IMG/VR virus record: IMGVR_UViG_3300036945_000641
Span: 9,240 to 73,239 of that record
From: a virus
Reading direction: 5' to 3' (one strand)
Length of the DNA stretch: 64,000 nt
Of this stretch, positions 30,380 to 62,344 are shown in pieces (position 1 is the stretch's first letter; every line of letters begins with the position of its first letter). The position numbers and the translations under genes were made by a program. Under the pieces are notes generated by a model. That model had not been told where the DNA came from, did not search any database, and saw nothing but the letters and a program-made list of their open reading frames with translations.

Positions 30380-30410
30380 TTTTAGTGTTATCTTTGTGGT
30401 GTAATTGTAT

Positions 30411-50934: not shown

Positions 50935-51010
50935 TGGTGCGGGCTACAGGGTTCGAACCTGCGACCTGTTCGTTGGCAACGAACTGCTCTACCAGCTGAG
51001 CTAAGCACGC
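50935..51010 (-). tRNA. tRNA-Gly (GCC)
   Basis: Cloverleaf, loop TTGCCAA, CCA. Confidence 0.92.
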
Positions 51011-51011
51011 A

Positions 51012-51314
51012 TTAAAAGGGTACATCGTCATCGCTAAAGTTTACTTCTTGCACAGAAGGCTCGTCATACTCTTTAGTATACGGGTCAACTTCTTCAAGCT
51101 GATGACGTTGCTGGTTTTTAAAGCCAGCGTGTTCTTTGATTGTTTCTGTTACTATACCTGTGTATTTCATTAAGCCAGATTTATCTGCCCAAATTAGGTA
51201 CTCGTAGTGATCTGGGATTACATCGCAGATTCTGCAACCTTGTAGTTTGCCAACACGTATTGTGTCAGTCATATCTAGTACAGTTGATTTTACATTTTTA
51301 AATGATATTGCCAT
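51012..51314 (-). CDS. small protein with SSB-like acidic C-terminus
   Basis: VGKLQG..I.DV...YL.W core; ends DDDVPF. Confidence 0.65.
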   Translation of the reverse strand: MAISFKNVKSTVLDMTDTIRVGKLQGCRICDVIPDHYEYLIWADKSGLMKYTGIVTETIKEHAGFKNQQRHQLEEVDPYTKEYDEPSVQEVNFSDDDVPF

Positions 51315-51395
51315 AAGAAAGCACACTCTAAGGCTGCCGGACTCAAACCAGCTTGATTTAATGGATGTGCCACACTAAGTGTGCTTACTTATGGC
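51310..51395 (-). ncRNA. stem-closed cassette A
   Basis: 18-bp inverted repeat (1 mismatch) including tRNA-Ser CCA; internal T-arm-like hairpin. Confidence 0.55.
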
Positions 51396-51483
51396 GGAAA
51401 GCAGAGGAGTCGAACCCCATCCCCGTTAGGAGAACCTGGTTTTCAAGGCCAGTCGCAGGACCATCCCCGCTGCATTACTTTCC
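51392..51483 (-). tRNA. tRNA-Ser (TGA)
   Basis: Long variable arm, loop CTTGAAA, G73-CCA. Confidence 0.9.
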
Positions 51484-51489
51484 ACGTTT

Positions 51490-52095
51490 TTATTCTTGTT
51501 TTTCGGCCTCTAGCTGAGCGTGTTTCTCGGCTACAGCGCTAAGTCGTTTTACAACTTCATCTGAAGTCATCCAAATATCTTTGTTGTGTAGCATTGAGTC
51601 AATTTCTTCGTGTGTTAAGAAATCTGCGTAAACTTCACGCATAAAGTTTTCTGACCAGCGACGTTCAAACTGTAGTTGGTCGTACATTTCTCCACCTTTG
51701 CCAAACACGCCTGCACTATAGTTGTGAAACATAAATAGTGAGTGTGGGGTTACTTCTTGCTGATGACCATGTAAGAAGATCATTGTTGCAGCACTCATGC
51801 AAGCGCCTTCAACTGAAGTAACAATAGTGGCTTCGGTCTCGCCCATAACTCGTAAAAATTGTAGTGTGGTATAAAGATCACCACCACCTGAGTTAATGTA
51901 GATACGAACTGTGTCAGCACTGGTGGCATTGCGAATTGTGTCAAACCACTCAATGTACTCTTGTGGCTCACAAATTTCACCACTCAAGTAGAACTCATAT
52001 AAGCGTCCGATTGATTTAGAAAAGCTATTACCATTCTTGTCCGTTTCAAACAATTTAGGGTCGAGAATGTTTGTCTTTTTAGTTGTCATTTTCAT
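51490..52095 (-). CDS. ClpP-like serine protease
   Basis: IYINSGGG, ACMSAATMIF, FMFH, DIWMTSDE. Confidence 0.85.
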   Translation of the reverse strand: MKMTTKKTNILDPKLFETDKNGNSFSKSIGRLYEFYLSGEICEPQEYIEWFDTIRNATSADTVRIYINSGGGDLYTTLQFLRVMGETEATIVTSVEGACMSAATMIFLHGHQQEVTPHSLFMFHNYSAGVFGKGGEMYDQLQFERRWSENFMREVYADFLTHEEIDSMLHNKDIWMTSDEVVKRLSAVAEKHAQLEAEKQE

Positions 52096-52114
52096 CTTAT
52101 ACTCGTTTATAAAT

Positions 52115-52457
52115 TAGGGCCAGTATTCTGTTACGAGGAACTGGCAAAACCCTAAGCAGCGTTTAGGCTGCTAATGCGTACGTGTTATCGTTTGCAGTTA
52201 TTTTTGTTTTGCTGTTACGACCAGGAAACCCCAGTCCTACGGCTGTCGCATTGCCGAGTTGTCTGCTTTAATACTCTTAGCCTAATCGAAAGCCAGGTCA
52301 GCCCCATCAAAAGCACTCCTAGTGTTCTTAGGTCGGGAATTCCAGTCCTCAGCCGTATGAGAAACAGCTTACATACTACCCTACTCAATGCTTATGGTGG
52401 AGCTGGCGGGAGTCGAACCCGCGTCTTAAACTCTTTTCTATCGGCTTCATACAACCA
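52115..52457 (-). ncRNA. ssrA: circularly permuted (two-piece) tmRNA
   Basis: Acceptor piece with T-arm and CAGCTCCACCA (~52457-52395) precedes coding piece starting GGGGCTG at 52305; G3.U70; tag ANDNTYALAA* at 52195-52163. Confidence 0.92.
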
Positions 52458-52565
52458 TACTATAACACACTACCCTTGCTGGGTGCTCCCAGTTACCCGC
52501 GGAAGGTGTGCTCGAGCTTACTCCGCATATATGCATTAAGTGGCGAGTAGTGTGTTATAGTATGG
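52455..52565 (-). ncRNA. stem-closed cassette B
   Basis: Perfect 19-bp inverted repeat ccatactataacacactac; internal hairpins. Confidence 0.6.
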
Positions 52566-52637
52566 TGCCGAATGTCGGGATTGAACTGACGACCTACCGC
52601 TTACAAGGCGGTTGCTCTACCACTGAGCTAATTCGGC
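52563..52637 (-). tRNA. tRNA-Thr (TGT)
   Basis: Cloverleaf, loop CTTGTAA, CCA. Confidence 0.95.
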
Positions 52638-52716
52638 GTTCCAACTGTGACCTTATGCTCTTGGCGTTGGCCCTTGAGCAGCCCACATTTTTAAAGTCGT
52701 CTGGGAACTGACTAAT

Positions 52717-52792
52717 TGGAGTACGTGACAGGAGTCGAACCTGCATAGTACGGATTTGCAATCCGCTCCCTAGCCATTCGGGTCACACGTAC
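52717..52792 (-). tRNA. tRNA-Cys (GCA)
   Basis: Cloverleaf, loop TTGCAAA, U73-CCA. Confidence 0.93.
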
Positions 52793-52793
52793 A

Positions 52794-53018
52794 TTAAATT
52801 TTGTTTTTAGTAACTAAAGCACTAAAAGTATTAAACGTCTGTTCAAACTTTAAACCATAGATGGACTCTAAACCCGAGAGATAGTTTGAGATTTCATCAG
52901 TGGTCATTTCACCACCATCAGGCTTGCCTTCTAGTACATACAAGTTTAACAACTTAATATCTTCTACAACATTCCAGCAATTCATAATTTGCTGTTCTAG
53001 ATCAAATCTGTCTGTCAT
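52794..53018 (-). CDS. conserved phage protein
   Basis: DRFDLEQQIMNCWNVVEDI motif. Confidence 0.65.
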   Translation of the reverse strand: MTDRFDLEQQIMNCWNVVEDIKLLNLYVLEGKPDGGEMTTDEISNYLSGLESIYGLKFEQTFNTFSALVTKNKI

Positions 53019-53148
53019 TTTGTAGTTCCTTTAGTTTTTGTTTGAGTGCTATGTTTACAAATTCACTTAGTGTGAGGTTTAATCTTTTTGCGGCTTGTTT
53101 TACTTGTTCTAGTAAATGTGCGTCAATATGTATTGTAATTGTTTTCAT
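53002..53148 (-). CDS. ribbon-helix-helix DNA-binding protein (48 aa, not in ORF track)
   Basis: MKTITIHIDAHLLEQVKQAAKRLNLTLSEFVNIAL. Confidence 0.7.
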   Translation of the reverse strand: MKTITIHIDAHLLEQVKQAAKRLNLTLSEFVNIALKQKLKELQNDRQI

Positions 53149-53149
53149 A

Positions 53150-53620
53150 CTAATTTGCAAGTACAAATTTTAATCGGTCAGCTGCATAACTTGCAGCAAA
53201 TGCTTTGGGCTTTACCTGTGCGTCAATATTGCAAGTGCCTTTGATATATCCCACAGCTTGTTGCACTACTGCTGAACTCTTATATCGCTCATTGGGATTA
53301 ATATCTAGGTGAACTTCTACGTAACGATCTTCTAGTACATCAGATAGTTCGTGAAATAGATCACTTACTTTATAAACTTCTTGCATTAGTCGCATTGCTG
53401 GTTTATTGGCTTTTTGATCCCAGTCACGCTCTCTGTGAACGTCACCAAAAATCTTACAGCCATGGTTTCCATCAATGTGTACTACAATAGCTAAAGTATA
53501 GTCTGCATACCATTTACCATGTACTTGTACTCGTTGGCTGTCAGCACCTAAATAAATTTTAGTTTCTGGCGAGCTTTGCCGAATATAGTCTTTTACTTCT
53601 TGTAGATTAAATTTACGCAT
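53150..53620 (-). CDS. RNase H-like YkuK family protein
   Basis: IYLGADSQ, RLMQEV, EVHLDIN, VKP.AFAAS.AAD. Confidence 0.85.
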   Translation of the reverse strand: MRKFNLQEVKDYIRQSSPETKIYLGADSQRVQVHGKWYADYTLAIVVHIDGNHGCKIFGDVHRERDWDQKANKPAMRLMQEVYKVSDLFHELSDVLEDRYVEVHLDINPNERYKSSAVVQQAVGYIKGTCNIDAQVKPKAFAASYAADRLKFVLAN

Positions 53621-53633
53621 AATTTTAGTTGTT

Positions 53634-53710
53634 TGGTGGGTCTAGAAAGATTCGAACTCTCACACCTCAGCTTCGTAGGCTGGGACACTTTCCAGTTGTG
53701 CTATAGACCC
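53634..53710 (-). tRNA. tRNA-Arg (ACG)
   Basis: Cloverleaf, loop CTACGAA, CCA. Confidence 0.93.
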
Positions 53711-53716
53711 AATATG

Positions 53717-53790
53717 TGGCACGGGGACTAGGGCTCGAACCTAGAACGACACAGTCAAAGTGTGTTGTGTTACCATTACACCATCCCCGA
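53717..53790 (-). tRNA. tRNA-Gln (TTG)
   Basis: Cloverleaf, loop CTTTGAC, G73-CCA. Confidence 0.92.
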
Positions 53791-53796
53791 ACAATT

Positions 53797-53875
53797 TGGC
53801 TCCGTATCTGGGGTTCGAACCCAGCTAATCATTGATTAACAGTCAAGTCCGTGCACCTAGCTCGGATTCTACGGA
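53797..53875 (-). tRNA. tRNA-Asn (GTT)
   Basis: Cloverleaf, loop CTGTTAA, G73-CCA. Confidence 0.88.
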
Positions 53876-53880
53876 ATAGA

Positions 53881-54036
53881 TTACCAATGTCTGATAACAC
53901 CGGCAACAATAAATATATTAGTTATGATATAGCACATAACAATTGCTGTTCTTATAAGGGCTACTTTATCAGCCTGAGAATCATCCCCTGCTTTTTCACC
54001 TAAGGCTTTTGCCCATAATGTCCAGAGTTTTTTCAT
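53881..54036 (-). CDS. small membrane protein
   Basis: LWAKALGEKAG...ADKVALIRT...AGVIRHW. Confidence 0.7.
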   Translation of the reverse strand: MKKLWTLWAKALGEKAGDDSQADKVALIRTAIVMCYIITNIFIVAGVIRHW

Positions 54037-54137
54037 ATTTAATTCTAGTGCTCGGTGCGCCATCCCCGAGTGAGCTTCAATACCAGAGAAGGATAGTATC
54101 TACACACTATAGCGCGTTTTCACTAGAATTAAATATG
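54034..54137 (-). ncRNA. stem-closed cassette C
   Basis: Perfect 17-bp inverted repeat catatttaattctagtg; possible internal pseudoknot. Confidence 0.55.
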
Positions 54138-54247
54138 CTGGTTACTTTATCCAGCGCCAATTATCGAATGGCAGTTCAATTGCTCGGACGTCAGCAGGAA
54201 CAACCCTTGCTCTAACCGTTTACGTCTAACGAACCTAAGGCAGGTCT

Positions 54248-54323
54248 TGGCGGGTCTAGGGGGTAACGATCCCCACTCTTCGGCAGTGACAGTGCCGTGT
54301 GCGTCCATGAACACTTTAGACCC
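54248..54323 (-). tRNA. tRNA-Asp (GTC)
   Basis: Cloverleaf, loop CTGTCAC, atypical T loop ATCGTTA. Confidence 0.9.
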
Positions 54324-54327
54324 AAAT

Positions 54328-54411
54328 TGGTACGAGAGAAGGGACTCGAACCCTTAATCCTTGCGGCGGCAGATTTTAAGTCTGCTGTGTATACCATTCC
54401 ACCACTCTCGC
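54328..54411 (-). tRNA. tRNA-Leu (TAA)
   Basis: Long variable arm, loop CTTAAAA. Confidence 0.95.
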
Positions 54412-54416
54412 GTAAA

Positions 54417-54542
54417 CCATATAAAAACACTTTGCTAGTACTTGAATCTATGACAACCCTACTTCATGGCCGATTCTTGCTTTAGTCGACTTGGCAAGCA
54501 TTGCGGAGTTCCACTGTAGTTGTTCAAAGTGTTTTTATATGG
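54417..54542 (-). ncRNA. stem-closed cassette D
   Basis: Perfect 18-bp inverted repeat ccatataaaaacactttg. Confidence 0.6.
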
Positions 54543-54632
54543 TGGATTAGGTTGGATTCGAACCAACAGTGTTTTCCCAGAGGGGACGGATTTACAGTCC
54601 GCCGATGCACACGCCATAGCATCAACTAATCC
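54540..54632 (-). tRNA. tRNA-Tyr (GTA)
   Basis: Long variable arm, loop CTGTAAA. Confidence 0.9.
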
Positions 54633-54648
54633 ATTTGTTTAAGAACTA

Positions 54649-54677
54649 ATTATATCAAGAAATAGCTCTTGAGTCAA
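54649..54677 (-). promoter_or_regulatory. sigma70 promoter with palindromic spacer
   Basis: TTGACT-17-TATAAT; tcaaga...tcttga inverted repeat. Confidence 0.75.
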
Positions 54678-54687
54678 ATCAGAAATT

Positions 54688-54761
54688 TGGCATCCCGAGA
54701 GGGACTCGAACCCCCACTTACGGTTTTGGAGACCGCAGTGCTGCCATTACACTATCGAGAG
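54688..54761 (-). tRNA. tRNA-Trp (CCA)
   Basis: Cloverleaf, loop CTCCAAA. Confidence 0.92.
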
Positions 54762-54785
54762 ACATATGGCTTGTAATTAATATTA

Positions 54786-54814
54786 ATTATACATGTTTTA
54801 ACAAAGTATATCAA
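54786..54814 (-). promoter_or_regulatory. sigma70 promoter
   Basis: TTGATA-17-TATAAT. Confidence 0.7.
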
Positions 54815-54834
54815 GCCAATTTTTATTATAGTTA

Positions 54835-55053
54835 TTACTCAGGAATTTCTAGTAATTTTTCATTAATAGCGGCCAGTAGTGCAGGCTCGTCTGTTCCTGT
54901 GTAAGCTACGTTAAATTTAATATTGTAAGTTCCGATATTTTTAAATACGCCAGGAATTACTTCTTCGCGAACTTCTACTTTTGCTGTGGTTTCAGGAGGA
55001 AACGTACTTACTGTTAGGGTAGATACGTGTACTTGTTTGTTTGTTAAATCCAT
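54835..55053 (-). CDS. hypothetical protein (last gene of Hint module)
   Basis: 72 aa ORF. Confidence 0.6.
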   Translation of the reverse strand: MDLTNKQVHVSTLTVSTFPPETTAKVEVREEVIPGVFKNIGTYNIKFNVAYTGTDEPALLAAINEKLLEIPE

Positions 55054-55062
55054 AATTTTTCT

Positions 55063-55506
55063 TTATAAATAAGAGTAGATACCTGCTCTATAAGTTAGGT
55101 TACTAGTAACTGTGGTAGCTTGTAGTGTTACGTTATAATCTATTTTATATCCTGTAAACCTAAGGTCACTACCAGCTATATCTGCACACAATAAATCTGT
55201 GTCAGCTGCAGGAGTATTATTAACTCCACGACCATAAAAATTAGTTACAATTGAACCATTAGCAGGAACATATTTTCCCAATAATTCGCTAACTGTATTA
55301 CCATTGCTGGCATTAAATTTAATTGTTAAGTATAAGAAATCATTTGAACCCATACTAACAAATGGTACTGTTACAACGGCTGCTCCTACATCAATAGTAC
55401 CTGTTATAAAGTTTTTTAAGTAAACAAGTTTATCATTACTACTAAACTTTAGGACACCTGAGTTATTGTTTATTTTGATTGATGTTGCATCAACTTTTAG
55501 TGTCAT
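55063..55506 (-). CDS. beta-rich tail-tip-like protein
   Basis: IKINNNSGVLKFSSNDK N-terminus resembles tail-tip subunits. Confidence 0.5.
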   Translation of the reverse strand: MTLKVDATSIKINNNSGVLKFSSNDKLVYLKNFITGTIDVGAAVVTVPFVSMGSNDFLYLTIKFNASNGNTVSELLGKYVPANGSIVTNFYGRGVNNTPAADTDLLCADIAGSDLRFTGYKIDYNVTLQATTVTSNLTYRAGIYSYL

Positions 55507-56138
55507 GGTGTTACCGCCAACTCTAAGTTAACAGGGTTTTTAGTATACATAAATTTTAAAGTATACCAGAATTTTGGCATAGTACCTGTGTATAATACCC
55601 CATTACTTGCTTGATAATAGTTACTGCCTGTAACATCAAACACATAAGTACCTGCACCTATGGGTGTAAAATTTGCTAGTTTAAAGAAAGCACCAATTGG
55701 TCTAACCCCACCACTTCCGTCAGTATTTGGAATACCCCTAACATCACCAATTATTCTAAAAGTGCCCGCGTTTGGGGTCCCGTTAAAGCTATAACTTAAA
55801 TAATCTGAAACGAAAGCTCCGGGGGACATCATAACTGGAGGGCTACCGCTATATAACGTGAATACGTCATTTCCTGGAGCATATGGAAGATATCCGCTTC
55901 TACTATAGCCAACAGTAGCCATATTTCCGCCAATCCAACCATCAACATAATAGCCGCCATACTCTGTTCTGTCTGTAATAGTATTATATCCAGCAATTGC
56001 CGGGGCTCTTTGAAATCCACCAGCTTTAAACTGACCATTAGTATCAGTTTTTAAATACTGATTACCAGACCAAAAAGTTGTGTCTCCATTAGAGGCTCTG
56101 GTTCTAAATTCGTTTGGTTTTATTATTATTCGTTCAAC
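55503..56138 (-). CDS. beta-rich, aromatic-rich putative receptor-binding protein
   Basis: G/Y/F-rich; FRTRASNGDTTFWSGNQYLK N-terminus; start uncertain. Confidence 0.5.
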   Translation of the reverse strand, partial: VERIIIKPNEFRTRASNGDTTFWSGNQYLKTDTNGQFKAGGFQRAPAIAGYNTITDRTEYGGYYVDGWIGGNMATVGYSRSGYLPYAPGNDVFTLYSGSPPVMMSPGAFVSDYLSYSFNGTPNAGTFRIIGDVRGIPNTDGSGGVRPIGAFFKLANFTPIGAGTYVFDVTGSNYYQASNGVLYTGTMPKFWYTLKFMYTKNPVNLELAVTP

Positions 56139-56403
56139 TGGCAAGATACACCTCTATATTATATAATATTTCTGCAGGTAAATCTGCTCCATATGTTACT
56201 GCCTGACAATATAGCCTTATTTCGCCAGTTGATTCGTCGTAAGACGCAAAAAAGTTCCTATAACCTGCACCGCCGTAATTAACCCTGTAGCCATTGCCAT
56301 AAGTAATACCATTTACTTTTAAAAATAGTATTGGATTAGTAACATTAGCATATCCAACACTAACATATTGTACTGCTTGTTGTGGTATAGCTGCTTGTGC
56401 CAT
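56134..56403 (-). CDS. small beta-rich protein
   Basis: 89 aa, 3 bp downstream of Hint gene. Confidence 0.55.
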   Translation of the reverse strand: MAQAAIPQQAVQYVSVGYANVTNPILFLKVNGITYGNGYRVNYGGAGYRNFFASYDESTGEIRLYCQAVTYGADLPAEILYNIEVYLAS

Positions 56404-56406
56404 AAT

Positions 56407-57288
56407 TTACCTATTTGGATGAAATATTCGACCTAGCATTTTGCTAGCAAATACTATAATATTTTTAAGTAGGCTTTTTTCACGGCGTATCTGACTACTA
56501 ATAAACTTCAGAAGTAAATCTGATTTAATGTAACTAACGCCTACATTTATTAAGTAAGCCCCGTACTGTACGTGTTTGCCTTTTGAAGTAAAAAAGACTA
56601 ATAAGTCTATTACTTCTTGTTGGGTTAGCCACCCTTTGCTAAACATATAACTCAGAGAGTTTCCCGAAAACATAATACTAGTAGTATTATATCCGTTAGC
56701 AATATAAGTGCCATCACCAGTTAACCATAAGTTATAAACAAAATTTCCAGTTGCTGGTTTTATTGTATATCCCCGCAACTGCTCGGGCTTTCCTAACCAA
56801 GGGTATAAGTCCCACACAGCAACAGGGTCAACTGCTTGTAAAACTCCGTCAATTATTAGTGGGTGGTTTACTGTTGCAAATGGCTTAAGCTTAGGGTCTG
56901 GACTATATAAATATTTCCATAAAGTATCAGGTACTTTTTCTATAAAAGTTACTGTATTTATAGTGCCTGTAGTACCCAATACTTTATCCCCTACTTGTAT
57001 ATCTACAATAGGCCTAGTACTGTTATCTGGTAGCGTAACCAAAGTATCGGGGGTAAAGCAGTCGCAGCCACCGTCATCCCAATAGATAAATTGTTGAGCA
57101 AGTCCAGGAAAAGAAGCAGGATCTGCCATAATTACCTTAGCTTTCAACTGTAGGTATGTTAATCCCGAATGAAAGTTAATATCAGCTAAGTGTGCACCAG
57201 GATTAGTTAAAACATCTGTGCCAATCAAACTTGTTTGTCCAATGACTACAACGCCTGTGGCCCCATCTGCATAAAAAGTTTTAGACAT
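56407..57288 (-). CDS. Hint (Hedgehog/intein)-domain protein
   Basis: GGCD/CFTPDTLV block A, IQVGDKV, TVNH block B, VYNL..YIANG block F; no terminal His-Asn. Confidence 0.85.
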   Translation of the reverse strand: MSKTFYADGATGVVVIGQTSLIGTDVLTNPGAHLADINFHSGLTYLQLKAKVIMADPASFPGLAQQFIYWDDGGCDCFTPDTLVTLPDNSTRPIVDIQVGDKVLGTTGTINTVTFIEKVPDTLWKYLYSPDPKLKPFATVNHPLIIDGVLQAVDPVAVWDLYPWLGKPEQLRGYTIKPATGNFVYNLWLTGDGTYIANGYNTTSIMFSGNSLSYMFSKGWLTQQEVIDLLVFFTSKGKHVQYGAYLINVGVSYIKSDLLLKFISSQIRREKSLLKNIIVFASKMLGRIFHPNR

Positions 57289-57823
57289 ATCTATATATCC
57301 CTTTTACTTTTGCAGGGTTTAATGTATCAACACTCGAGAGTTTGTTGGGTATATGTTGTAGTACTTTATTATCACCTAAGTAAAGTGCAATATGCGATAA
57401 TACAGTATTAGGCATATTTTCATATACAAGCATATCTCCTACTTGCATAACTTGAACTTCAACAAAGCCGTGTTTTAAAAACCAAGGGCCCATACCAGCC
57501 ATATAGTAGTTATAAAAGTCTCTGTTAGGAATACTTTTATATAGCTGTGTTAAATTGGTGCCTTTGTTATCGTCATGCCAGTTAAAGCAGATGACTACAC
57601 AATCAGCTTGACGTAGACCATAACTACGGCCAATATAAGAACTTTTTGGAGATATAAGAGAAACTTTTCTCTCTAGTTTATTTACGTAAATACTAGGGCT
57701 TTGAAAACTTTCGGTTACTAGGAACATTCCGTCTTCTGCTTCTACTAAGTCGCCTTCTACTATATTAAATCTAGTTCCGATTTTATCGAAATAATTTTCA
57801 TAATCCATGTCATATAACGCCAA
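57281..57823 (-). CDS. NlpC/P60 peptidase (lambda gpK-like)
   Basis: YIGRSY...ADC, GDML, HIALYLGDNKVLQH, GIYR. Confidence 0.85.
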   Translation of the reverse strand: MALYDMDYENYFDKIGTRFNIVEGDLVEAEDGMFLVTESFQSPSIYVNKLERKVSLISPKSSYIGRSYGLRQADCVVICFNWHDDNKGTNLTQLYKSIPNRDFYNYYMAGMGPWFLKHGFVEVQVMQVGDMLVYENMPNTVLSHIALYLGDNKVLQHIPNKLSSVDTLNPAKVKGIYRYV

Positions 57824-57851
57824 AAAGTCAGCAGTATTTCTACTACTGACT
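57822..57851 (-). terminator. terminator-like hairpin
   Basis: agtcagtagta-gaaa-tactgctgact-tttt. Confidence 0.65.
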
Positions 57852-57860
57852 ATATTAATT

Positions 57861-57935
57861 TGGTGGAAATAAGTAGATTCGAACTACTGACCTAGGCCGT
57901 ATGAAGACCGTGCACTACCACTGTGCTATATTTCC
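57861..57935 (-). tRNA. tRNA-Met (CAT)
   Basis: Cloverleaf, loop TTCATAC, CCA. Confidence 0.9.
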
Positions 57936-57939
57936 GTAA

Positions 57940-58042
57940 AATAGTTTTGTTGTGTCGGGATAACTATCAACCCCGTGAGCGCAGCCCATCCTGTTTTCGC
58001 GTCAGCGGAGCCAAGTGACCTTAGTCATTTACAGGCTTGGCA
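57940..58042 (-). ncRNA. candidate pseudoknotted RNA between Met tRNAs
   Basis: gccaag/cttggc stem, tgac/gtca hairpin, cctgt/acagg crossing helix. Confidence 0.45.
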
Positions 58043-58045
58043 AAT

Positions 58046-58119
58046 TGGTAGCGGGTCTAGGATTTGAACCTAGGATGCTCCGAGCTTATGAGACTGGAGT
58101 GGTGGCCGCCCTACCCGCA
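58046..58119 (-). tRNA. atypical initiator-like tRNA-Met (CAT)
   Basis: 1:72 mismatch, loop CTCATAA, reduced D arm. Confidence 0.75.
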
Positions 58120-58123
58120 ATAA

Positions 58124-58285
58124 TTAATAGCAACTATTGAAAAGTTTGCGGCTTTGATAGTCTGCCCAAATCTTTTCTAATCGCTGTACATCTTTGTGAT
58201 CTACAGGCTTTGCGTCGTTCATGAATTCGTCAATCGTATAAGGCTTGAACAAGTCCTGTATACGCTGCATTAAGTCACTTAGCAT
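58124..58285 (-). CDS. 53-aa protein, DUF3563-like (not in ORF track)
   Basis: DEFMNDAKPVDHKDVQRLEK. Confidence 0.55.
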   Translation of the reverse strand: MLSDLMQRIQDLFKPYTIDEFMNDAKPVDHKDVQRLEKIWADYQSRKLFNSCY

Positions 58286-58499
58286 TAACAAAACCATATA
58301 GCTGTTTGGCTTTTTCTACGACTTCGCTAAAATCATACATTTTAGGTGCGTATTCTTTCCAGTCTGCTTGCACTTTTTGACCACTAACTACTAGTTGGTC
58401 AAACACTTGCTTAGCAAACGCGGTGTTAATTTCTTGTTGTTGTTCAAGGTACTCTTTTGCCATTTCTAGCATTTGTGTACGAATTTCAAATGGATTCAT
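58275..58499 (-). CDS. conserved phage protein
   Basis: MNPFEIR..MLEMAKEY...AKQLYGFV; aggag RBS. Confidence 0.7.
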   Translation of the reverse strand: MNPFEIRTQMLEMAKEYLEQQQEINTAFAKQVFDQLVVSGQKVQADWKEYAPKMYDFSEVVEKAKQLYGFVNAK

Positions 58500-58601
58500 G
58501 TGAATCTCCTGTGTGATGTGTGAATAGAGGTGAGGGGAATATTTAAGCAGCCGACCCCCTCACTGCTGCAAAAGATCATTCTGGCGTCTATCTACCTGCG
58601 G

Positions 58602-58823
58602 TTATTCTGATTTGCCTAAACGACCCATATCACCAGTATGAGTTACATCAGTAGTGGTGGTAATAGTAATTGGCATTAGTTCAATGCTTCCAGGTGTAAT
58701 GTCGCTTACATCTAGCCCTGTTTTAGGGTCTAGTGTTTCGGCATAGCCTTCGTTATAAGGTACGCCTGTTTGCACAATGCCTTGTTGTGCAACTGCTGGG
58801 GCTTTAATTGCTTTTGTTTTCAT
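58602..58823 (-). CDS. hypothetical protein
   Basis: 73 aa with aagga RBS. Confidence 0.55.
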   Translation of the reverse strand: MKTKAIKAPAVAQQGIVQTGVPYNEGYAETLDPKTGLDVSDITPGSIELMPITITTTTDVTHTGDMGRLGKSE

Positions 58824-58831
58824 AATAATCC

Positions 58832-58930
58832 TTACTTAGGGTATTTAGGGTACATACCCTTGCACATTGCACATTGGCATGTGGCACAGTGATATGGATT
58901 TGTAGGGCTAGTTGGTTGGATTGGTTGCAT
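58832..58930 (-). CDS. 32-aa Cys-rich microprotein (not in ORF track)
   Basis: MQPIQPTSPTNPYHCATCQCAMCKGMYPKYPK; taagga RBS. Confidence 0.55.
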   Translation of the reverse strand: MQPIQPTSPTNPYHCATCQCAMCKGMYPKYPK

Positions 58931-58943
58931 AGTAATCCTTAAT

Positions 58944-59018
58944 TGGTATCCATGGACAATTCCGAGATGTCGACCTAACGCTTATCAAGCGTTTGCTCTG
59001 CCTCTGAGCTACACGGAT
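58944..59018 (-). tRNA. tRNA-Ile (GAT)
   Basis: Cloverleaf, loop TTGATAA; non-canonical T loop CTCGGAA. Confidence 0.88.
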
Positions 59019-59023
59019 ATAAT

Positions 59024-59098
59024 TGGTACTCCCGAACGGTTTCGATCCGTCTTTTCCGCCTTGAAAGGGCAGCGTCCTAGCCAGTAGACGACGGGAGC
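59024..59098 (-). tRNA. tRNA-Glu (TTC)
   Basis: Cloverleaf, loop CTTTCAA. Confidence 0.92.
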
Positions 59099-59108
59099 AT
59101 TATTCTAT

Positions 59109-59184
59109 TGGTACCGATGATTGGACTCGAACCAACCACACACAGATTTTCAGTCTGCTGCTCTACCTGATGAGCTACATCGGC
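59109..59184 (-). tRNA. tRNA-Phe (GAA)
   Basis: Cloverleaf, loop CTGAAAA. Confidence 0.95.
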
Positions 59185-59400
59185 TTAAAATGCTGGATTT
59201 TGTTCTTGCCATACTAGCGACTCATGACTTCCACAGTCATTACGCCAAGCACACTGCGACAACAGTTTAGTTGAGCAGTCATCAAAACCCCAGCAATGTG
59301 GAGGATTAGTACCTCGCATTGATTTAATTTGTTGCAGTATATGATAGCGTCGATTGCTGAGATTAGCTTCTTTGTCTAGTAACTTTTGTATTTCAGTCAT
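59185..59400 (-). CDS. Cys-rich hypothetical protein
   Basis: HCWGFDDCS...CAWRNDC; start MTEIQ. Confidence 0.55.
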   Translation of the reverse strand: MTEIQKLLDKEANLSNRRYHILQQIKSMRGTNPPHCWGFDDCSTKLLSQCAWRNDCGSHESLVWQEQNPAF

Positions 59401-59401
59401 T

Positions 59402-59430
59402 ATTATACCGCATTTTGAAAAGTATTTCAA
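59402..59430 (-). promoter_or_regulatory. sigma70 promoter
   Basis: TTGAAA-17-TATAAT. Confidence 0.7.
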
Positions 59431-59446
59431 GTCTAAAAATAGCTGA

Positions 59447-59520
59447 GGGGTGACCACTGGGAATCGAACCCAGACTAAAAGAATCACAATCTCGGGTGCT
59501 AACCGTTACACTATGGCCAC
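59447..59520 (-). tRNA. tRNA-His (GTG)
   Basis: Cloverleaf, loop TTGTGAT, C73; terminal A of CCA not encoded; T at -1. Confidence 0.88.
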
Positions 59521-59533
59521 ACCTAAGCTATCT

Positions 59534-59621
59534 TGGCGGAAGTAGTAGGATTCGAACCTACGCGCCGATTTCTCAACGACAGTTTAGCAAACTGCTGGTT
59601 TAACCACTCACCCATACTTCC
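59534..59621 (-). tRNA. tRNA-Ser (GCT)
   Basis: Long variable arm, loop TTGCTAA. Confidence 0.93.
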
Positions 59622-59748
59622 ACATATGTATAACCCCAACTACACTTTACGGTTCAAGCGCAATGTTCGAGGATTACAACTACTAGGCTAGTTAGACCGT
59701 TCGTAACCAACTGGAGAACTACTCCAGCTTAGGGTTATACATATATGG
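59620..59748 (-). ncRNA. stem-closed cassette E
   Basis: 17-bp stem (one G.U on minus strand) pairing Lys CCA with Ser 5' GG. Confidence 0.6.
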
Positions 59749-59820
59749 TAGACGCACAGAGAATCGAACTCTGATTACCTCGTTAAAAGCAAGGTACTTT
59801 AGCCGTTAAGTTATACGTCC
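59746..59820 (-). tRNA. tRNA-Lys (TTT)
   Basis: Cloverleaf, loop CTTTTAA. Confidence 0.92.
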
Positions 59821-59939
59821 AGGTTTCGCTTCCATTCACCACGAAGCTGCTTGTGGGTTTTTTGATGAGAACCCGCGCCGTTACGCTTGATTAAAGCTAT
59901 AACAACGTGGTTTCGTGGTTTTCGTGTTTTTGTTTTCAT
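59811..59939 (-). CDS. 42-aa basic protein (not in ORF track)
   Basis: MKTKTRKPRNHVVIALIKRNGAGSHQKTHKQLRGEWKRNLDV; aagg RBS. Confidence 0.6.
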   Translation of the reverse strand: MKTKTRKPRNHVVIALIKRNGAGSHQKTHKQLRGEWKRNLDV

Positions 59940-60069
59940 AGGATAACCTTTTAATTTCTAAAGGTACAAATTCTTTTTGAGTTGTTTGATAGAACATAGG
60001 TATAAACTCTTTGTATACAGTCCAACTACCTGATGGATTAAACGGAAGTTTACACATAGTACGTTCCTT

Positions 60070-60144
60070 TGGTGGAAGATAGGAGATTCGAACTCCTGAC
60101 TCAAGCTTGCAAAGCTAGCGCGTTCCCAATTACGCCAATCCCCC
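60070..60144 (-). tRNA. tRNA-Ala (TGC)
   Basis: G3.U70, loop TTTGCAA. Confidence 0.93.
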
Positions 60145-60151
60145 GATTGTT

Positions 60152-60235
60152 TGGTGGGCAAAGAGAGACTCGAACTCTCAATCCTTTCGGCACTGGCTTC
60201 TAAGACCAGCGTGTATACCATTCCACCACTTGCCC
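60152..60235 (-). tRNA. tRNA-Leu (TAG)
   Basis: Long variable arm, loop CTTAGAA. Confidence 0.95.
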
Positions 60236-60384
60236 ATTAATTAAGTATTATCGCGCCCATTTGTCTACAGGATAGCTAGTCCAGACAAGCGAATGGCGGT
60301 TATATTAGGACCTGTTCCTCGCACAGTTAGGCCCGCATAGTGCTAACGTCTTAGCACGATACCCTGATAATACTTAATTAATGG
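60234..60384 (-). ncRNA. stem-closed cassette F
   Basis: Perfect 19-bp inverted repeat ccattaattaagtattatc; multi-hairpin interior. Confidence 0.6.
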
Positions 60385-60455
60385 TCAAGGCGGCAAGAAT
60401 CGAACTTGCGCTACAACGTCCCAAACGTCGGGTGATGCCATTTCACTACGCCCTG
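60382..60455 (-). tRNA. tRNA-Pro (TGG)
   Basis: C1-G72, loop TTTGGGA. Confidence 0.92.
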
Positions 60456-60461
60456 AAATAC

Positions 60462-60628
60462 TGGTAGATCGGGCAGGACTCGAACCTGCTTCCTAAAATT
60501 ATACGACCCCATAACCATTTATTCGAATTCAGGCCACCAGAACTCACTTGCTTGCGGCATTGGAGAGTGTTAGGTGAAGGGGGGATGTATGCTAGCTTTG
60601 TGCTTTAACCATGTTAAGCTACCGATCC
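60462..60628 (-). ncRNA. 167-nt tRNA-like RNA with ~90-nt anticodon-loop insertion
   Basis: Acceptor stem GGATCGG/CCGATCT-ACCA, D arm, T arm GCAGG-TTCGAGT-CCTGC. Confidence 0.8.
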
Positions 60629-60745
60629 ATATATTAGCATAATCAATATTACCATGTTGACGCATGGCTTTTCGCAGTCCGTCAAAACCACCAATACGGC
60701 TCCTGCTATCTTGCAGAAGGCATACTGTCAATTACGCTAATATAT
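60629..60745 (-). ncRNA. stem-closed cassette G
   Basis: 15-bp stem with G.U only on minus strand; ttgacg/cgtcaa loop pairing. Confidence 0.55.
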
Positions 60746-60931
60746 AGAGAGTGTCCCTAAACACTCAACATATAGTCTTGAACCAGGACGACAATCCTGC
60801 TGTATCTTAGATATCCAAACATTCCTTCTACAGCGGCAGGACGTTTATTTTAGTGACGGAGCTTGCATCCGCCTCGACCGAAGTGAGCCACAATAACTAG
60901 GGAGTTGTTAGTGTAGGCTTGGCGGGACTAA

Positions 60932-61184: not shown

Positions 61185-61207
61185 TCTCCAAATCAGACTA
61201 TATTATA
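61185..61207. repeat. 23-bp direct repeat, copy 1 (-10 box plus leader)
   Basis: tctccaaatcagactatattata, identical at 61732-61754. Confidence 0.8.
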
Positions 61208-61230
61208 TCAACAAACAGCGGCTTCGTCAA
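61202..61230 (-). promoter_or_regulatory. sigma70 promoter
   Basis: TTGACG-17-TATAAT. Confidence 0.8.
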
Positions 61231-61748: not shown

Positions 61749-61777
61749 ATTATAATCTGATTCAGAGACTTAATCAA
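61749..61777 (-). promoter_or_regulatory. sigma70 promoter (overlaps repeat copy 2)
   Basis: TTGATT-17-TATAAT. Confidence 0.75.
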
Positions 61778-61870: not shown

Positions 61871-62344
61871 TTACTTGCTGGTAACTGGCCCGTATGGTTG
61901 GAATAGCTCAGTTTCAAAGAAACCTTGCAACTGAGGGTCCATGTACTCAAAGTTGTCAGGAATGTTAAGCACAATCTGCTTTCGATCAATTTGCTCAAGC
62001 AAGTCCTGATGACCTAAGAAGTTATCTTCTAGTTGCCATAAATTCTCACCGTTAACAAATACAATCTTTTGAGCCCAGTTAATAAGATTAGCGCTACAAG
62101 GCACAAGGGCATAATTAAAATTACTGCCACAGCTACGAGCGTTAATGTTACGATGAACTGCCATAGCAGCACCAGTGGGGCTGCGAAGCAAACCTGCACT
62201 GCAAACAAACAACCATCGTGGAGCCTGTCCTTGATACTGGTTTGCGTAGGGTGCATTGGTTTGAAAAATACTGCTGTTTTTAGTGCCATCTGCGAACTCT
62301 TTGCGTAATTGTGTCATAGCGTCTTTACTTAGTGGTATCATCAT
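61871..62344 (-). CDS. low-molecular-weight PTP-like phosphatase
   Basis: LFVCSAGLLRSPT (CX5R), LNIPDNFEYMDP. Confidence 0.8.
   Translation of the reverse strand: MMIPLSKDAMTQLRKEFADGTKNSSIFQTNAPYANQYQGQAPRWLFVCSAGLLRSPTGAAMAVHRNINARSCGSNFNYALVPCSANLINWAQKIVFVNGENLWQLEDNFLGHQDLLEQIDRKQIVLNIPDNFEYMDPQLQGFFETELFQPYGPVTSK

What the first reader, a model, noticed from the sequence alone, without database searches (positions are those of the whole stretch)
51310..60745. Array of stem-closed structured RNA cassettes among the tRNA genes
Seen: at least seven spacers (51310-51395, 52455-52565, 54034-54137, 54417-54542, 59620-59748, 60234-60384, 60629-60745) are closed by 15-19 bp AU-rich inverted repeats. 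Each encloses 50-115 nt of unrelated, GC-richer, hairpin-forming sequence. In five, the 5' arm begins with the upstream tRNA's CCA. In three, the 3' arm overlaps or abuts the 5' end of the next tRNA or tRNA-like RNA. Two stems have mismatches that are G.U pairs only on the tRNA (minus) strand. Four interiors have a hairpin loop complementary to another internal segment (gagc/gctc, tggcgc/gcgcta, gtcga/tcggc, cgtcaa/ttgacg), which suggests pseudoknots. They lack U-tracts and long sense-strand ORFs. Inference: a modular cargo-RNA system in which tRNA processing (RNase P, 3' trimming, possibly RNase III on the long stem) releases a panel of small ncRNAs. These could be decoys against RNA-sensing defences or pseudoknotted antitoxin mimics. 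I know of no named family for these.
Basis: partly seen in the sequence, partly recalled or inferred. Interest (0 to 1): 0.9.

Follow-up and report, generated by a model that had tools for sequence, protein, structure and literature searches.

The report
Stem-closed small RNAs between phage tRNAs
Between the tRNA genes of this uncultured T5-like phage lie seven small folded RNA units, each clamped shut by a long helix; they are built like the unexplained 'stable RNAs' of phage T5, and what they do is still unknown.

Summary
All seven AU-rich closing stems exist (17-24 nt arms). Under a strict Watson-Crick criterion 5 stems of 17 bp or more are found, against a mean of 0.04 in 100 shuffles, and all 5 lie in the tRNA island.

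They are RNA-level structures on the tRNA strand. In 82 unique stems from the window and 45 related IMG/VR loci, non-Watson-Crick positions are G.U 49 times and A.C 9 times. Internal helices of two cargo families covary.

No Rfam family matches any interior. The kind is not new, however. The phage T5 RefSeq record annotates 'stable RNA with unknown functions' in its tRNA cluster. T5 RNAIII sits in an 18-bp stem that starts on the preceding GCCA and runs into tRNA-His.

New detail:
- Cassette C2 belongs to a phage-only family of at least 44 members tied to the gene breaks of two-piece tmRNA.
- That family carries a variable 6-10 nt palindrome in one loop, which suggests a kissing dimer.
- C3-type cargo has an all-pyrimidine, anti-Shine-Dalgarno-like loop.

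The decoy reading is untested, and the proposed pseudoknots are not supported. Expression could not be tested. Earlier reports of this scan reached the same T5 link on other genomes.

The parts
51310..51395 (-). Cassette C1: 18-21 bp closing stem and 44-50 nt cargo. It follows the GCCA of a tRNA-like gene. An in-frame ATG (51314-51312) of the downstream ORF lies in the 3' arm.
   Evidence: Homologs in L003 and L016 have a near-identical interior.
51396..51483 (-). tRNA-like gene with a long variable arm (Ser/Sec type) whose GCCA opens C1.
   Evidence: Rfam tRNA-Sec 36.8 bits, below the cut-off of 47. Not called by ARAGORN. 88.9% identical to an unannotated stretch of Pseudomonas phage PHB09.
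52454..52566 (-). Cassette C2: 20-22 bp stem running from the ACCA of tRNA-Thr to the first bases of the tmRNA acceptor piece. The cargo is a three-way junction of the 'C2-type' family.
52510..52517 (-). 8-nt perfect palindrome in the apical loop of helix P2 of C2 (candidate kissing-loop site).
   Evidence: 41 of 44 family members have a palindrome of 6 nt or more at this loop position. Shuffled loops give a mean of 7.2 of 44, maximum 14.
52107..52456 (-). Circularly permuted (two-piece) tmRNA gene, tag ANDNTYALAA. Its intervening segment, about 52306-52394, is itself stem-closed.
   Evidence: ARAGORN. Rfam RF04321 120.7 bits and RF01850 107.2 bits.
54034..54137 (-). Cassette C3: 17 bp perfect stem with 'C3-type' cargo, whose covarying hairpin carries an all-pyrimidine loop. 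An in-frame ATG (54036-54034) of the downstream small ORF lies at the end of the 3' arm.
54416..54543 (-). Cassette C4: 19 bp perfect stem from the ACCA of tRNA-Tyr to about 5 nt before tRNA-Leu.
   Evidence: One homolog, in L005.
59617..59751 (-). Cassette C5: 23 bp stem with G.U pairs, from the CCA of tRNA-Lys into the 5' end of tRNA-Ser.
   Evidence: Five homologs lie after tRNA-Phe with a different outer stem.
60229..60389 (-). Cassette C6: 24 bp stem from the CCA of tRNA-Pro into tRNA-Leu, with a 113-nt cargo.
   Evidence: No homolog of the cargo among the loci compared.
60626..60748 (-). Cassette C7: 18-23 bp stem with G.U pairs. It abuts a tRNA that carries an insert of about 90 nt (60465-60628).
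   Evidence: Homologs in L003 and L010 have an invariant 3' half.

Best explanation
The seven cassettes are genes for small structured RNAs embedded in the phage's tRNA operons. They are the same kind of element as phage T5's stable RNAs RNAIII and RNAIV.

Proposed mechanism. Each unit is transcribed together with its neighbouring tRNAs. A long AU-rich helix forms, usually between the sequence starting at the upstream tRNA's (N)CCA and the sequence just before or overlapping the next tRNA's first bases. The unit is then freed by RNase P at its 3' side and by cleavage in or next to the helix at its 5' side. Host RNase III is the best candidate for the 5' cut, and RNase E with 3' trimming is the alternative. 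The remaining helix seals both ends of the cargo against exonucleases, so the RNA accumulates. The same helix also defines the ends of the flanking tRNAs and of the tmRNA acceptor piece.

The cargoes are independent, exchangeable RNA modules with their own functions, which are not known. C2-type cargo probably dimerises through a palindromic loop and is linked to two-piece tmRNA genes. C3-type cargo displays a pyrimidine loop able to pair with Shine-Dalgarno-like sequences.

Shown: structure, conservation, placement, and identity of architecture with T5 RNAIII.

Inferred: expression, the enzymes involved, dimerisation, and any trans-acting role.
For: Reality of the stems
- The seven stems exist and exceed chance.
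- Pairing is selected on the tRNA strand. In 82 unique stems, G.U occurs 49 times and A.C 9 times, binomial p = 9e-8. C3, C5 and C7 fold much better on the minus strand.

Cargoes are conserved structured RNAs
- C3 family: 12 sequences, 100% of cells paired, 14 of 24 pairs with compensatory change, 0 of 500 shuffles as high.
- C2 family: 11 sequences, 12 of 37 pairs compensatory. With 44 sequences, 29 of 37 pairs are compensatory and 96.8% of cells are paired (that alignment is fitted to the model).
- Unpaired core segments are invariant in the 11 C2-type sequences collected without a pattern.
- C1, C4, C5 and C7 have homologs with conserved interiors.

Placement
- 54 of 92 unique cassettes have a tRNA end within 12 nt upstream. 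In 45 of those 54, the arm starts 2-4 nt inside the tRNA end.
- C3-type and C5-type cargo occur in other tRNA contexts with the outer stem re-fitted.

Transcription context
- All tRNAs and cassettes lie on one strand.
- Strong sigma-70-like sites lie outside the cassettes, and no terminator-like site lies on a closing stem.

T5 precedent
- NC_005859 annotates RNAIII, RNAI, RNAIV and others as stable RNAs in its tRNA cluster.
- RNAIII lies inside an 18-bp stem (record 30278-30397). The stem starts with the GCCA of RNAI and ends 6 nt inside tRNA-His. RNAIV lies inside a 17-bp stem.
- The annotated RNAIII ends give a duplex with a 2-nt 3' overhang, as RNase III leaves.

tmRNA context
- The 5' end of the tmRNA acceptor piece is not an RNase P site, and it starts exactly where the C2 stem ends.
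Against: - There is no expression data. No listed sequencing run holding the stretch is RNA, so transcripts, their ends and their stability are untested for this phage.
- No RNase III gene is present in the 73-kb record, which is 69% complete. The host is unknown.
- T5 RNAIII's 3' end coincides with the tRNA-His 5' end. RNase P alone could therefore make it, and the 2-nt stagger may be a coincidence. The T5 ends come from an annotation, not from data I saw.
- The C2 model finds nothing in T5, and blastn of C2 and C3 finds nothing in 50,697 phage records. The link to T5 is one of architecture, not of shown homology.
- Two stems (C3, C7) do not start on a CCA.
- C6 has no homolog, so its cargo is unsupported by comparison.
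- The covariation alignment A4 was partly selected by a sequence pattern and fitted to the model.
Confidence: 0.62

Rival explanations
1. Processing spacers only. The helices are RNase III (or other) cleavage or insulation signals that separate tRNAs in polycistronic precursors. The interiors are filler with no function of their own.
For: - The helices reach exactly to the tRNA ends.
- The outer stems are re-fitted to local context.
- Stem lengths of 17-24 bp suit RNase III.
- One 17-nt arm sequence closes at least 7 unrelated interiors.
- T5 deletion mutants lacking tRNA-region DNA are viable (recalled, not checked here).
Against: - The interiors carry invariant unpaired segments and covarying internal hairpins across phages whose ClpP-like protein is only 58-77% identical.
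- The C2-type loop palindrome is kept in 41 of 44 members while its sequence changes.
- The C3-type loop is all-pyrimidine in 12 of 12.
- Filler would not be conserved in this way.
Confidence: 0.15
2. DNA-level mobile or recombination elements. On this reading they are MITE-like units with terminal inverted repeats, or integron attC-like folded sites, and they shuffle tRNA genes.
For: - Similar arms surround different cargo, and the same cargo appears in different tRNA contexts.
- The arm consensus CCAUAUUUUAGCACAYU is shared by many cassettes.
Against: - G.U outnumbers A.C 49 to 9 on the tRNA strand.
- Internal helices covary with G.U intermediates.
- The 73-kb record has no integrase, reverse transcriptase or transposase-like hit. 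It is 69% complete, and not every ORF was scanned.
- The arms are tied to tRNA CCA ends rather than to target-site duplications.
- Single-stranded DNA folding on that strand is not strictly excluded.
Confidence: 0.07
3. Cis-acting catalytic or sensing RNAs. The cargoes would be self-cleaving ribozymes that process tRNA or tmRNA ends, or riboswitch aptamers controlling downstream genes. The precedent is the glutamine riboswitch reported in the 3' domain of phage Melnitz's two-piece ssrA.
For: - The invariant junction nucleotides with covarying helices in C2-type are typical of ribozymes and aptamers.
- C2-type sits at places where tmRNA ends must be made.
- Melnitz precedent: PMC9004378, passages read.
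- In-frame ATGs of the ORFs downstream of C1 and C3 lie in the 3' arms.
Against: - No Rfam ribozyme or riboswitch family matches, even at E up to 5-10.
- The conserved cores lie about 20 bp away from the RNA ends that need cutting.
- Seven unrelated cargoes are unlikely all to be catalysts.
- Most cassettes are followed by a tRNA, not by an ORF.
Confidence: 0.08
4. Promoters or terminators of the tRNA operons.
For: Some 3' arms in relatives contain extended -10-like words (read by eye). Two weak 9-of-12 promoter-like matches touch the 5' arms of C6 and C7.
Against: - All 10 matches scoring 10-12 of 12 lie outside the cassettes.
- The total of 39 promoter-like sites is no more than in shuffles (35.6 +/- 4.5).
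- No closing stem is followed by a U-tract.
- These readings would not explain the complementarity or the G.U bias.
Confidence: 0.03

Closest known systems
Phage T5 stable RNAs of the tRNA region, above all RNAIII and RNAIV (misc_RNA features of NC_005859, 'stable RNA with unknown functions')
   Same: - They lie inside the tRNA cluster of a T5-type phage on the tRNA strand and are about 100 nt long.
- They fold as multi-hairpin interiors closed by a terminal AU-rich helix.
- The RNAIII helix starts on the GCCA of the preceding tRNA-like RNA and runs into the next tRNA.
- Their function is unknown.
   Different: - No sequence or model similarity was found. R1 finds nothing in T5, though only the C2 model was tried.
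- T5 has two such units, while this lineage has 7 or more per array.
- The stems here are longer (17-24 bp against 12-18) and often share a consensus.
- The T5 RNAs are annotated as observed stable RNAs, whereas these are predicted only.
Phage T4 RNAC and RNAD (species 2 and 1 RNAs) of the tRNA region
   Same: They are small RNAs transcribed from a phage tRNA region whose biological roles are unknown (PMC3014915, passage read). They have been seen on northern blots (PMC9697503, passage read).
   Different: T4 belongs to a different phage family. I did not examine the T4 sequences, so whether they are stem-closed was not tested.
RNase III processing stalks (helices flanking 16S/23S rRNA; phage T7 early-RNA sites) - established knowledge, recalled
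   Same: A long helix formed by sequences flanking a functional RNA in a polycistronic precursor. Cleavage of the helix would release the enclosed RNA. The annotated ends of T5 RNAIII give a 2-nt 3' overhang.
   Different: Cleavage was not shown here. The enclosed RNAs are small and varied, and the helix incorporates a tRNA's CCA end.
Intervening sequence (IVS) of circularly permuted two-piece tmRNA genes (PMC11915505, passages read)
   Same: A stem-closed segment between a CCA end and the 5' end of the next tRNA-like piece, removed by tRNA-processing enzymes. C2-type cargo is itself the IVS in 8 of 40 unique copies by ARAGORN, plus 3 judged by eye.
   Different: In the window C2 lies outside the tmRNA gene, upstream of the acceptor piece. 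In the passages I read, the paper mentions a tRNA gene and a repetitive element inside IVSs, but no conserved IVS RNA family.
Glutamine riboswitch in the 3' domain of the two-piece ssrA of phage Melnitz (PMC9004378, passages read)
   Same: A separate structured RNA module attached to a phage two-piece tmRNA gene.
   Different: C2-type does not match the glnA or Downstream-peptide models, nor any other Rfam model.
GOLLD and ROOL large phage-associated RNAs that form homo-oligomers (PMC12286853, abstract in search listing only)
   Same: Non-coding RNAs of phages that self-associate. That paper's text also mentions tRNA arrays (2 occurrences in the listing).
   Different: Those RNAs are many times larger. 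Self-association of C2-type is inferred only from a loop palindrome.

Membership tests
T5-type stable RNAs of the phage tRNA cluster (RNAIII/RNAIV kind) | Non-tRNA gene inside a phage tRNA cluster, on the tRNA strand. | tested here: met
   All seven lie between or next to tRNA genes on the minus strand. The phage is T5-like: its DNA polymerase is 49% identical to those of Vibrio T5-like phages.
T5-type stable RNAs of the phage tRNA cluster (RNAIII/RNAIV kind) | RNA of about 100 nt closed by a terminal helix whose arms reach the preceding CCA and the next tRNA. | tested here: met
   T5 RNAIII sits in an 18-bp stem running from GCCA into tRNA-His. In the window, five cassettes start on CCA and five end at or within about 5 nt of the next RNA.
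T5-type stable RNAs of the phage tRNA cluster (RNAIII/RNAIV kind) | Accumulates as a discrete stable RNA in infected cells. | not testable with these tools
   No RNA run holds the stretch. The phage is uncultured.
T5-type stable RNAs of the phage tRNA cluster (RNAIII/RNAIV kind) | Sequence or structure homology to T5 RNAIII or RNAIV. | tested here: not met
   Model R1 (C2-type) has no match at E 0.01 or below in the T5 tRNA region L046. blastn of C2 and C3 against 50,697 phage records finds nothing. The other five cargoes were not modelled.
RNase III substrate | Uninterrupted double helix of about two turns. | tested here: met
   Arms of 17-24 nt at 87-100% complementarity. The median stem is 19 bp over the cassettes detected within tRNA arrays in 46 sources.
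RNase III substrate | Cleavage giving ends staggered by 2 nt. | not testable with these tools
   Only indirect evidence: the annotated T5 RNAIII ends give a 2-nt 3' overhang.
Any Rfam 15 family (ribozymes, riboswitches, Y RNA/YrlA, 6S, skipping-rope and others) | Match to the covariance model. | tested here: not met
   Only tRNA and tmRNA models pass the gathering score. Nothing matches inside any cassette at E 5 or below. For C2 at E 10 or below, only a generic hairpin match appears.
Y RNA / YrlA | Ro (TROVE) protein partner encoded nearby. | tested here: not met
   PF05731 is absent from the 73-kb record, which is 69% complete.
Retron msr-msd | Adjacent reverse transcriptase. | tested here: not met
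   PF00078 is absent from the record.
Integron attC / MITE | Integrase or transposase present, and DNA-level symmetry without strand bias. | tested here: not met
   PF00589 is absent. G.U outnumbers A.C 49 to 9.
C2-type cargo family (unnamed; defined here by model R1) | Closing helix P1, conserved junction, near-invariant P2, variable P3 hairpin. | tested here: met
   The window copy scores 142.6 bits. There are 44 members at 47 bits or more. Covariation is shown.
Kissing-loop dimerisation element | Self-complementary hairpin-loop sequence kept as a palindrome while its letters vary. | tested here: met
   41 of 44 members have a palindrome of 6 nt or more at a fixed loop position, among 21 distinct longest-palindrome strings (3 of them only 4 nt). 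Shuffled loops give a mean of 7.2, maximum 14. Dimer formation itself was not tested.

The most novel reading that the evidence does not exclude
The closing helix is a general phage 'delivery frame'. It is a conserved, host-RNase-processed clamp that lets T5-like phages express and freely swap a library of small trans-acting RNAs from their tRNA operons. Individual cargoes would then have distinct jobs during infection. C2-type would be a self-dimerising RNA that works with, or regulates, the phage's two-piece tmRNA and ClpP module. C3-type would be an anti-Shine-Dalgarno-like loop that titrates or blocks ribosome-binding sites. Others would be decoys or antisense RNAs against host defences.
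Probability: 0.3. Interest if true: 0.85.

Novelty: new variant of a known kind. Interest (0 to 1): 0.6.

Why it matters
T5's and T4's small stable RNAs have been unexplained for decades. The record and the review passage I read call their functions or roles unknown.

This lineage shows that such RNAs are not oddities of two laboratory phages. They belong to a widespread, phage-only, modular system with conserved cargo families. That gives comparative handles T5 alone never offered:
- covarying structures;
- a dimerisation-type palindrome;
- a link to the gene breaks of two-piece tmRNA;
- an anti-SD-like loop.

If the helices are RNase III or RNase P release signals, they also explain how the 5' end of a two-piece tmRNA acceptor piece is made. 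They could also serve as natural parts for expressing small RNAs from tRNA operons.

My seven successful paper searches turned up no description of the CCA-anchored cassette architecture or of the C2-type family. Older T5 papers are mostly outside the searchable library, and supplements were closed.

Tried and rejected
- Expression. The look-up of sequencing runs on 51300-60800 listed 24 DNA runs and no RNA holder.
- Known phages. megablast of 51000-55000 hit only tRNA genes and the tRNA-like gene. blastn 'distant' of C2 and C3 gave no match.
- Promoter reading of the 3' arms: rejected.
- Pseudoknots. A scan of A1 and A2 for conserved crossing helices of 4 bp or more found none with variation.
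- Antisense targets of cassettes and other spacers in the phage's own 73 kb. The longest complementarity was 14 nt, which is chance level. Host targets could not be searched because the host is unknown.
- Enzymes in the record. RNase III, integrase, reverse transcriptase and TROVE are all absent. The record is 69% complete, so absence is weak evidence.
- Stem-consensus scan of IMG/VR. Of 104 matches in the loci examined, only 20 had a partner arm (both orientations counted), about 12 cassettes with at least 7 different interiors. The pattern is too AT-rich to be specific, so I could not check an earlier report's figure of more than 200 inserts.
- C2 core pattern in IMG/VR. Of 112 stretches, 51 carried the second motif (40 unique). 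The other 61 are probably chance matches. My first filter regex was wrong and found only 3; it was corrected.
- C2 core pattern in 185,579 species genomes. It gave 3 stretches: 2 real ones on tiny MAG contigs and 1 chance match in coding DNA.
- Vibrio T5-like isolates were not examined for cassettes.
- The fold of T5 RNAI, RNA1, RNA2 and RNA3 shows tRNA-like rather than stem-closed forms.

Full report
Context.

The window is 64 kb of a 73-kb IMG/VR virus record that is linear and 69% complete by CheckV. GC content is 39.5%. It is a T5-like phage. PHROGs hits include DNA polymerase, SbcC-like nuclease, DnaB-like helicase and ribonucleotide reductase. The polymerase is 49% identical to those of Vibrio T5-like phages.

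Between about 48.4 and 61.9 kb the minus strand carries 24 ARAGORN tRNAs and a circularly permuted tmRNA. The tmRNA matches Rfam RF04321 at 120.7 bits and RF01850 at 107.2 bits. A ClpP-like gene follows directly. Rfam adds three more tRNA-type genes:
- 58947-59018;
- 60465-60628, with an insert of about 90 nt;
- 51396-51483, Sec/Ser-like and below the cut-off.

Observation.

All seven closing stems are found by the repeat finder at the stated places. Arms are 17-24 nt, complementarity is 87-100%, and 50-113 nt lie between the arms. With a Watson-Crick-only criterion, 5 stems of 17 bp or more remain, all in the tRNA island. The mean in 100 dinucleotide shuffles is 0.04.

Every cassette folds more stably on the minus strand than its own shuffles, with z from -4.0 to -7.2. 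C3, C5 and C7 are 9 to 22 kcal/mol more stable on the minus strand than on the plus strand.

Relatives.

The ClpP-like protein recovered 45 IMG/VR loci at 45-81% identity. A stem finder of my own found the same architecture in most of them. Its features are a 15-27 bp AU-rich stem, usually beginning CCAUAU, an interior of 35-150 nt, and a 3' arm ending AUAUGG next to the following tRNA.

An unbiased, Watson-Crick-scored detection gave 92 unique cassettes within tRNA arrays. Of these, 54 have a tRNA end within 12 nt upstream, and in 45 of the 54 the arm begins 2-4 nt inside that end.

Among 82 unique stems, non-Watson-Crick positions are G.U in 49 cases, A.C in 9 and other in 9, p = 9e-8. That bias is what selection for pairing of the tRNA-sense RNA predicts. 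It is not what a DNA-level inverted repeat predicts. Stems average 30% GC and interiors 48%.

Cargo families.

blastn clustering and alignments show that five of the window's seven interiors recur in relatives:
- C3: 12 sequences
- C2: 11 sequences
- C5: 6 sequences
- C7 and C1: 3 sequences each
- C4: 2 sequences
- C6: none

For C3 the consensus structure is paired in 100% of cells, and 14 of 24 pairs show compensatory change. For C2, 12 of 37 pairs do. In both cases 0 of 500 shuffles reach the observed value, and slid controls fall to 25-50% pairing.

Internal hairpins covary, not only the closing stems.

The same cargo appears in different contexts. C3-type lies between Glu and Asp, between Leu and Asp, before Asn, and in the window before a small ORF. 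In each place the inner stem is conserved and the outer stem is re-fitted to the local CCA. C5-type behaves likewise.

What is known.

No Rfam 15 model matches any interior at E 5 or below. For C2 alone nothing real appears at E 10 or below.

The RefSeq record of phage T5, however, annotates eight misc_RNA features in its tRNA cluster. RNAIII, RNAI, RNAIV, RNA2H and RNAX are 'stable RNA with unknown functions'. RNA1, RNA2 and RNA3 are tRNA-like.

RNAIII (106 nt) and RNAIV (103 nt) fold as multi-hairpin interiors closed by a terminal stem. My stem finder shows that RNAIII lies within an 18-bp helix (record 30278-30397). The 5' arm of that helix begins with the GCCA of RNAI, and its 3' arm ends 6 nt inside tRNA-His. 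RNAIV lies within a 17-bp helix. This is the architecture of the finding.

The annotated RNAIII ends lie inside the helix and leave a 2-nt 3' overhang, as RNase III products do. The 3' end, however, is also the RNase P site of tRNA-His.

A T4 review states that RNAC and RNAD from the T4 tRNA region have unknown roles (PMC3014915, passage). A 2022 study detected them by northern blot (PMC9697503, passage). The kind is therefore known, though unnamed in Rfam and unexplained.

The C2-type family.

A degenerate pattern from the C2 core matched 112 IMG/VR stretches. Of these, 51 also carried the second core motif, and 40 were unique. A covariance model built from the 11 pattern-independent sequences scored 44 members at 47 bits or more and none in T5.

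On these 44 members:
- P1 covaries at 22 of 22 pairs.
- P3 covaries at 5 of 5 pairs.
- P2 is nearly invariant.

The alignment is fitted to the model, and the core invariance is partly imposed by the pattern.

Context is striking. Among the 40 unique copies:
- 8 lie inside permuted tmRNA genes as the intervening segment, with 3 more judged by eye;
- 10 abut the 5' end of the acceptor piece, as in the window;
- 4 abut the 3' end of the coding piece;
- 5 lie within 1.6 kb of a tmRNA;
- the rest lie between tRNAs or on short contigs.

In the ClpP-anchored loci, 9 of 11 C2-type cassettes flank or lie within a tmRNA gene, against 17 of 81 other cassettes, Fisher p = 1.3e-4. The family is virtually absent from 185,579 prokaryotic species genomes. 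That scan gave 3 pattern matches: 2 real ones on tiny MAG contigs and 1 chance match.

The apical loop of P2 holds a perfect palindrome of 6-10 nt at a fixed position in 41 of 44 members. The longest palindromes found form 21 distinct strings, 3 of them only 4 nt. Shuffled loops give 7.2 of 44 on average, maximum 14 in 1000 trials.

A 6-nt palindrome cannot fold on itself. The natural reading is therefore loop-loop pairing between two copies.

C3-type.

The covarying hairpin of C3-type carries a loop of 7-15 nt that is 100% pyrimidine in 12 of 12 members. It contains CCUCC or CCUUC/CUUCC. This would pair with Shine-Dalgarno-like purine tracts. That is a lead, not a result.

Mechanism.

I take the cassettes to be co-transcribed with the tRNAs. 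They share one strand, strong promoter-like sites lie only outside the cassettes, and no terminator-like site lies on a closing stem. Release would occur by RNase P at the 3' side and by a cut in or beside the helix at the 5' side. The residual helix would then protect the cargo.

The helix also supplies the only obvious signal for the 5' end of the tmRNA acceptor piece, which is not an RNase P site.

RNase III is the best candidate for three reasons: helix length, AU-rich regular stems, and the T5 RNAIII stagger. It is not shown. The conservation of unpaired cargo nucleotides, the palindrome and the pyrimidine loop argue that the cargoes act on their own, beyond processing. What they do remains open.

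Rivals and limits.

- A processing-only reading fails to explain cargo conservation.
- A DNA-element reading fails on the G.U bias and on the absence of recombinases.
- Ribozyme or riboswitch readings have no model support. A riboswitch attached to a phage two-piece ssrA is, however, in print (PMC9004378).
- Promoter and terminator readings are rejected.
- No RNA data exist for this phage, and the host is unknown.
- The searchable library lacks most of the older T5 literature, and supplements were closed.

Earlier reports of this scan on other genomes reached the same T5 RNAIII comparison and noted the tmRNA link and a self-pairing loop. I tested those points here independently.

Noticed in passing
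window 52107-52456 (-) and 51490-52095 (-): A two-piece tmRNA (tag ANDNTYALAA) lies directly upstream of a ClpP-like protease gene (PHROG 1827, E 8e-62). The pair is conserved in 45 IMG/VR loci.
   Followed up: partly
window 60465-60628 (-): A tRNA-type gene (Rfam tRNA, 39.8 bits) carries an insertion of about 90 nt. ARAGORN does not call it.
   Followed up: no
window 53150-53620 (-): A 156-aa ORF inside the tRNA island matches PF04308 RNaseH_like (E 8e-19) and PHROG 11311. tblastn finds it in 79 phage records, 58 of them Vibrio phages; many of the listed records are 150-250 kb, and the listing includes none from T5. It is a candidate nuclease of the island.
   Followed up: partly
window 54138-54247, 57936-58045, 60749-60931, 52638-52716, 58500-58601 (-): Further non-coding, GC-richer spacers in the array have no long closing stem. 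Three of them begin with a similar GCCAAG(C/A)C word, and two contain CUGACG. No Rfam match at E 5 or below.
   Followed up: no
window 51314-51312 and 54036-54034 (-): In-frame ATG codons of the ORFs downstream of C1 and C3 lie inside the 3' arms of the closing stems. The helices could therefore mask translation starts.
   Followed up: no
window 54461-54466 (-), within C4: A 6-nt palindrome in the C4 interior is conserved in its single homolog (L005). It may be a second self-pairing loop.
   Followed up: partly
window 61749-61777 and 61202-61230 (-): Two near-identical promoter-plus-leader blocks (a -10 region followed by the same word of about 20 nt and GGAGA) precede small ORFs at the edge of the island.
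   Followed up: no
window 55503-57823 and 62325-63344 (-): NlpC/P60 and Hint-like ORFs lie inside the tRNA island, and a UvdE-family endonuclease (E 5e-39) lies at its edge.
   Followed up: no
L019, L022, L025, L007, L035, L036, L023 (tmRNA loci of relatives): The intervening segments of relatives' permuted tmRNA genes are closed by 20-25 bp helices that continue the acceptor stem through ACCA. They enclose different cargoes of 36-134 nt.
   Followed up: partly
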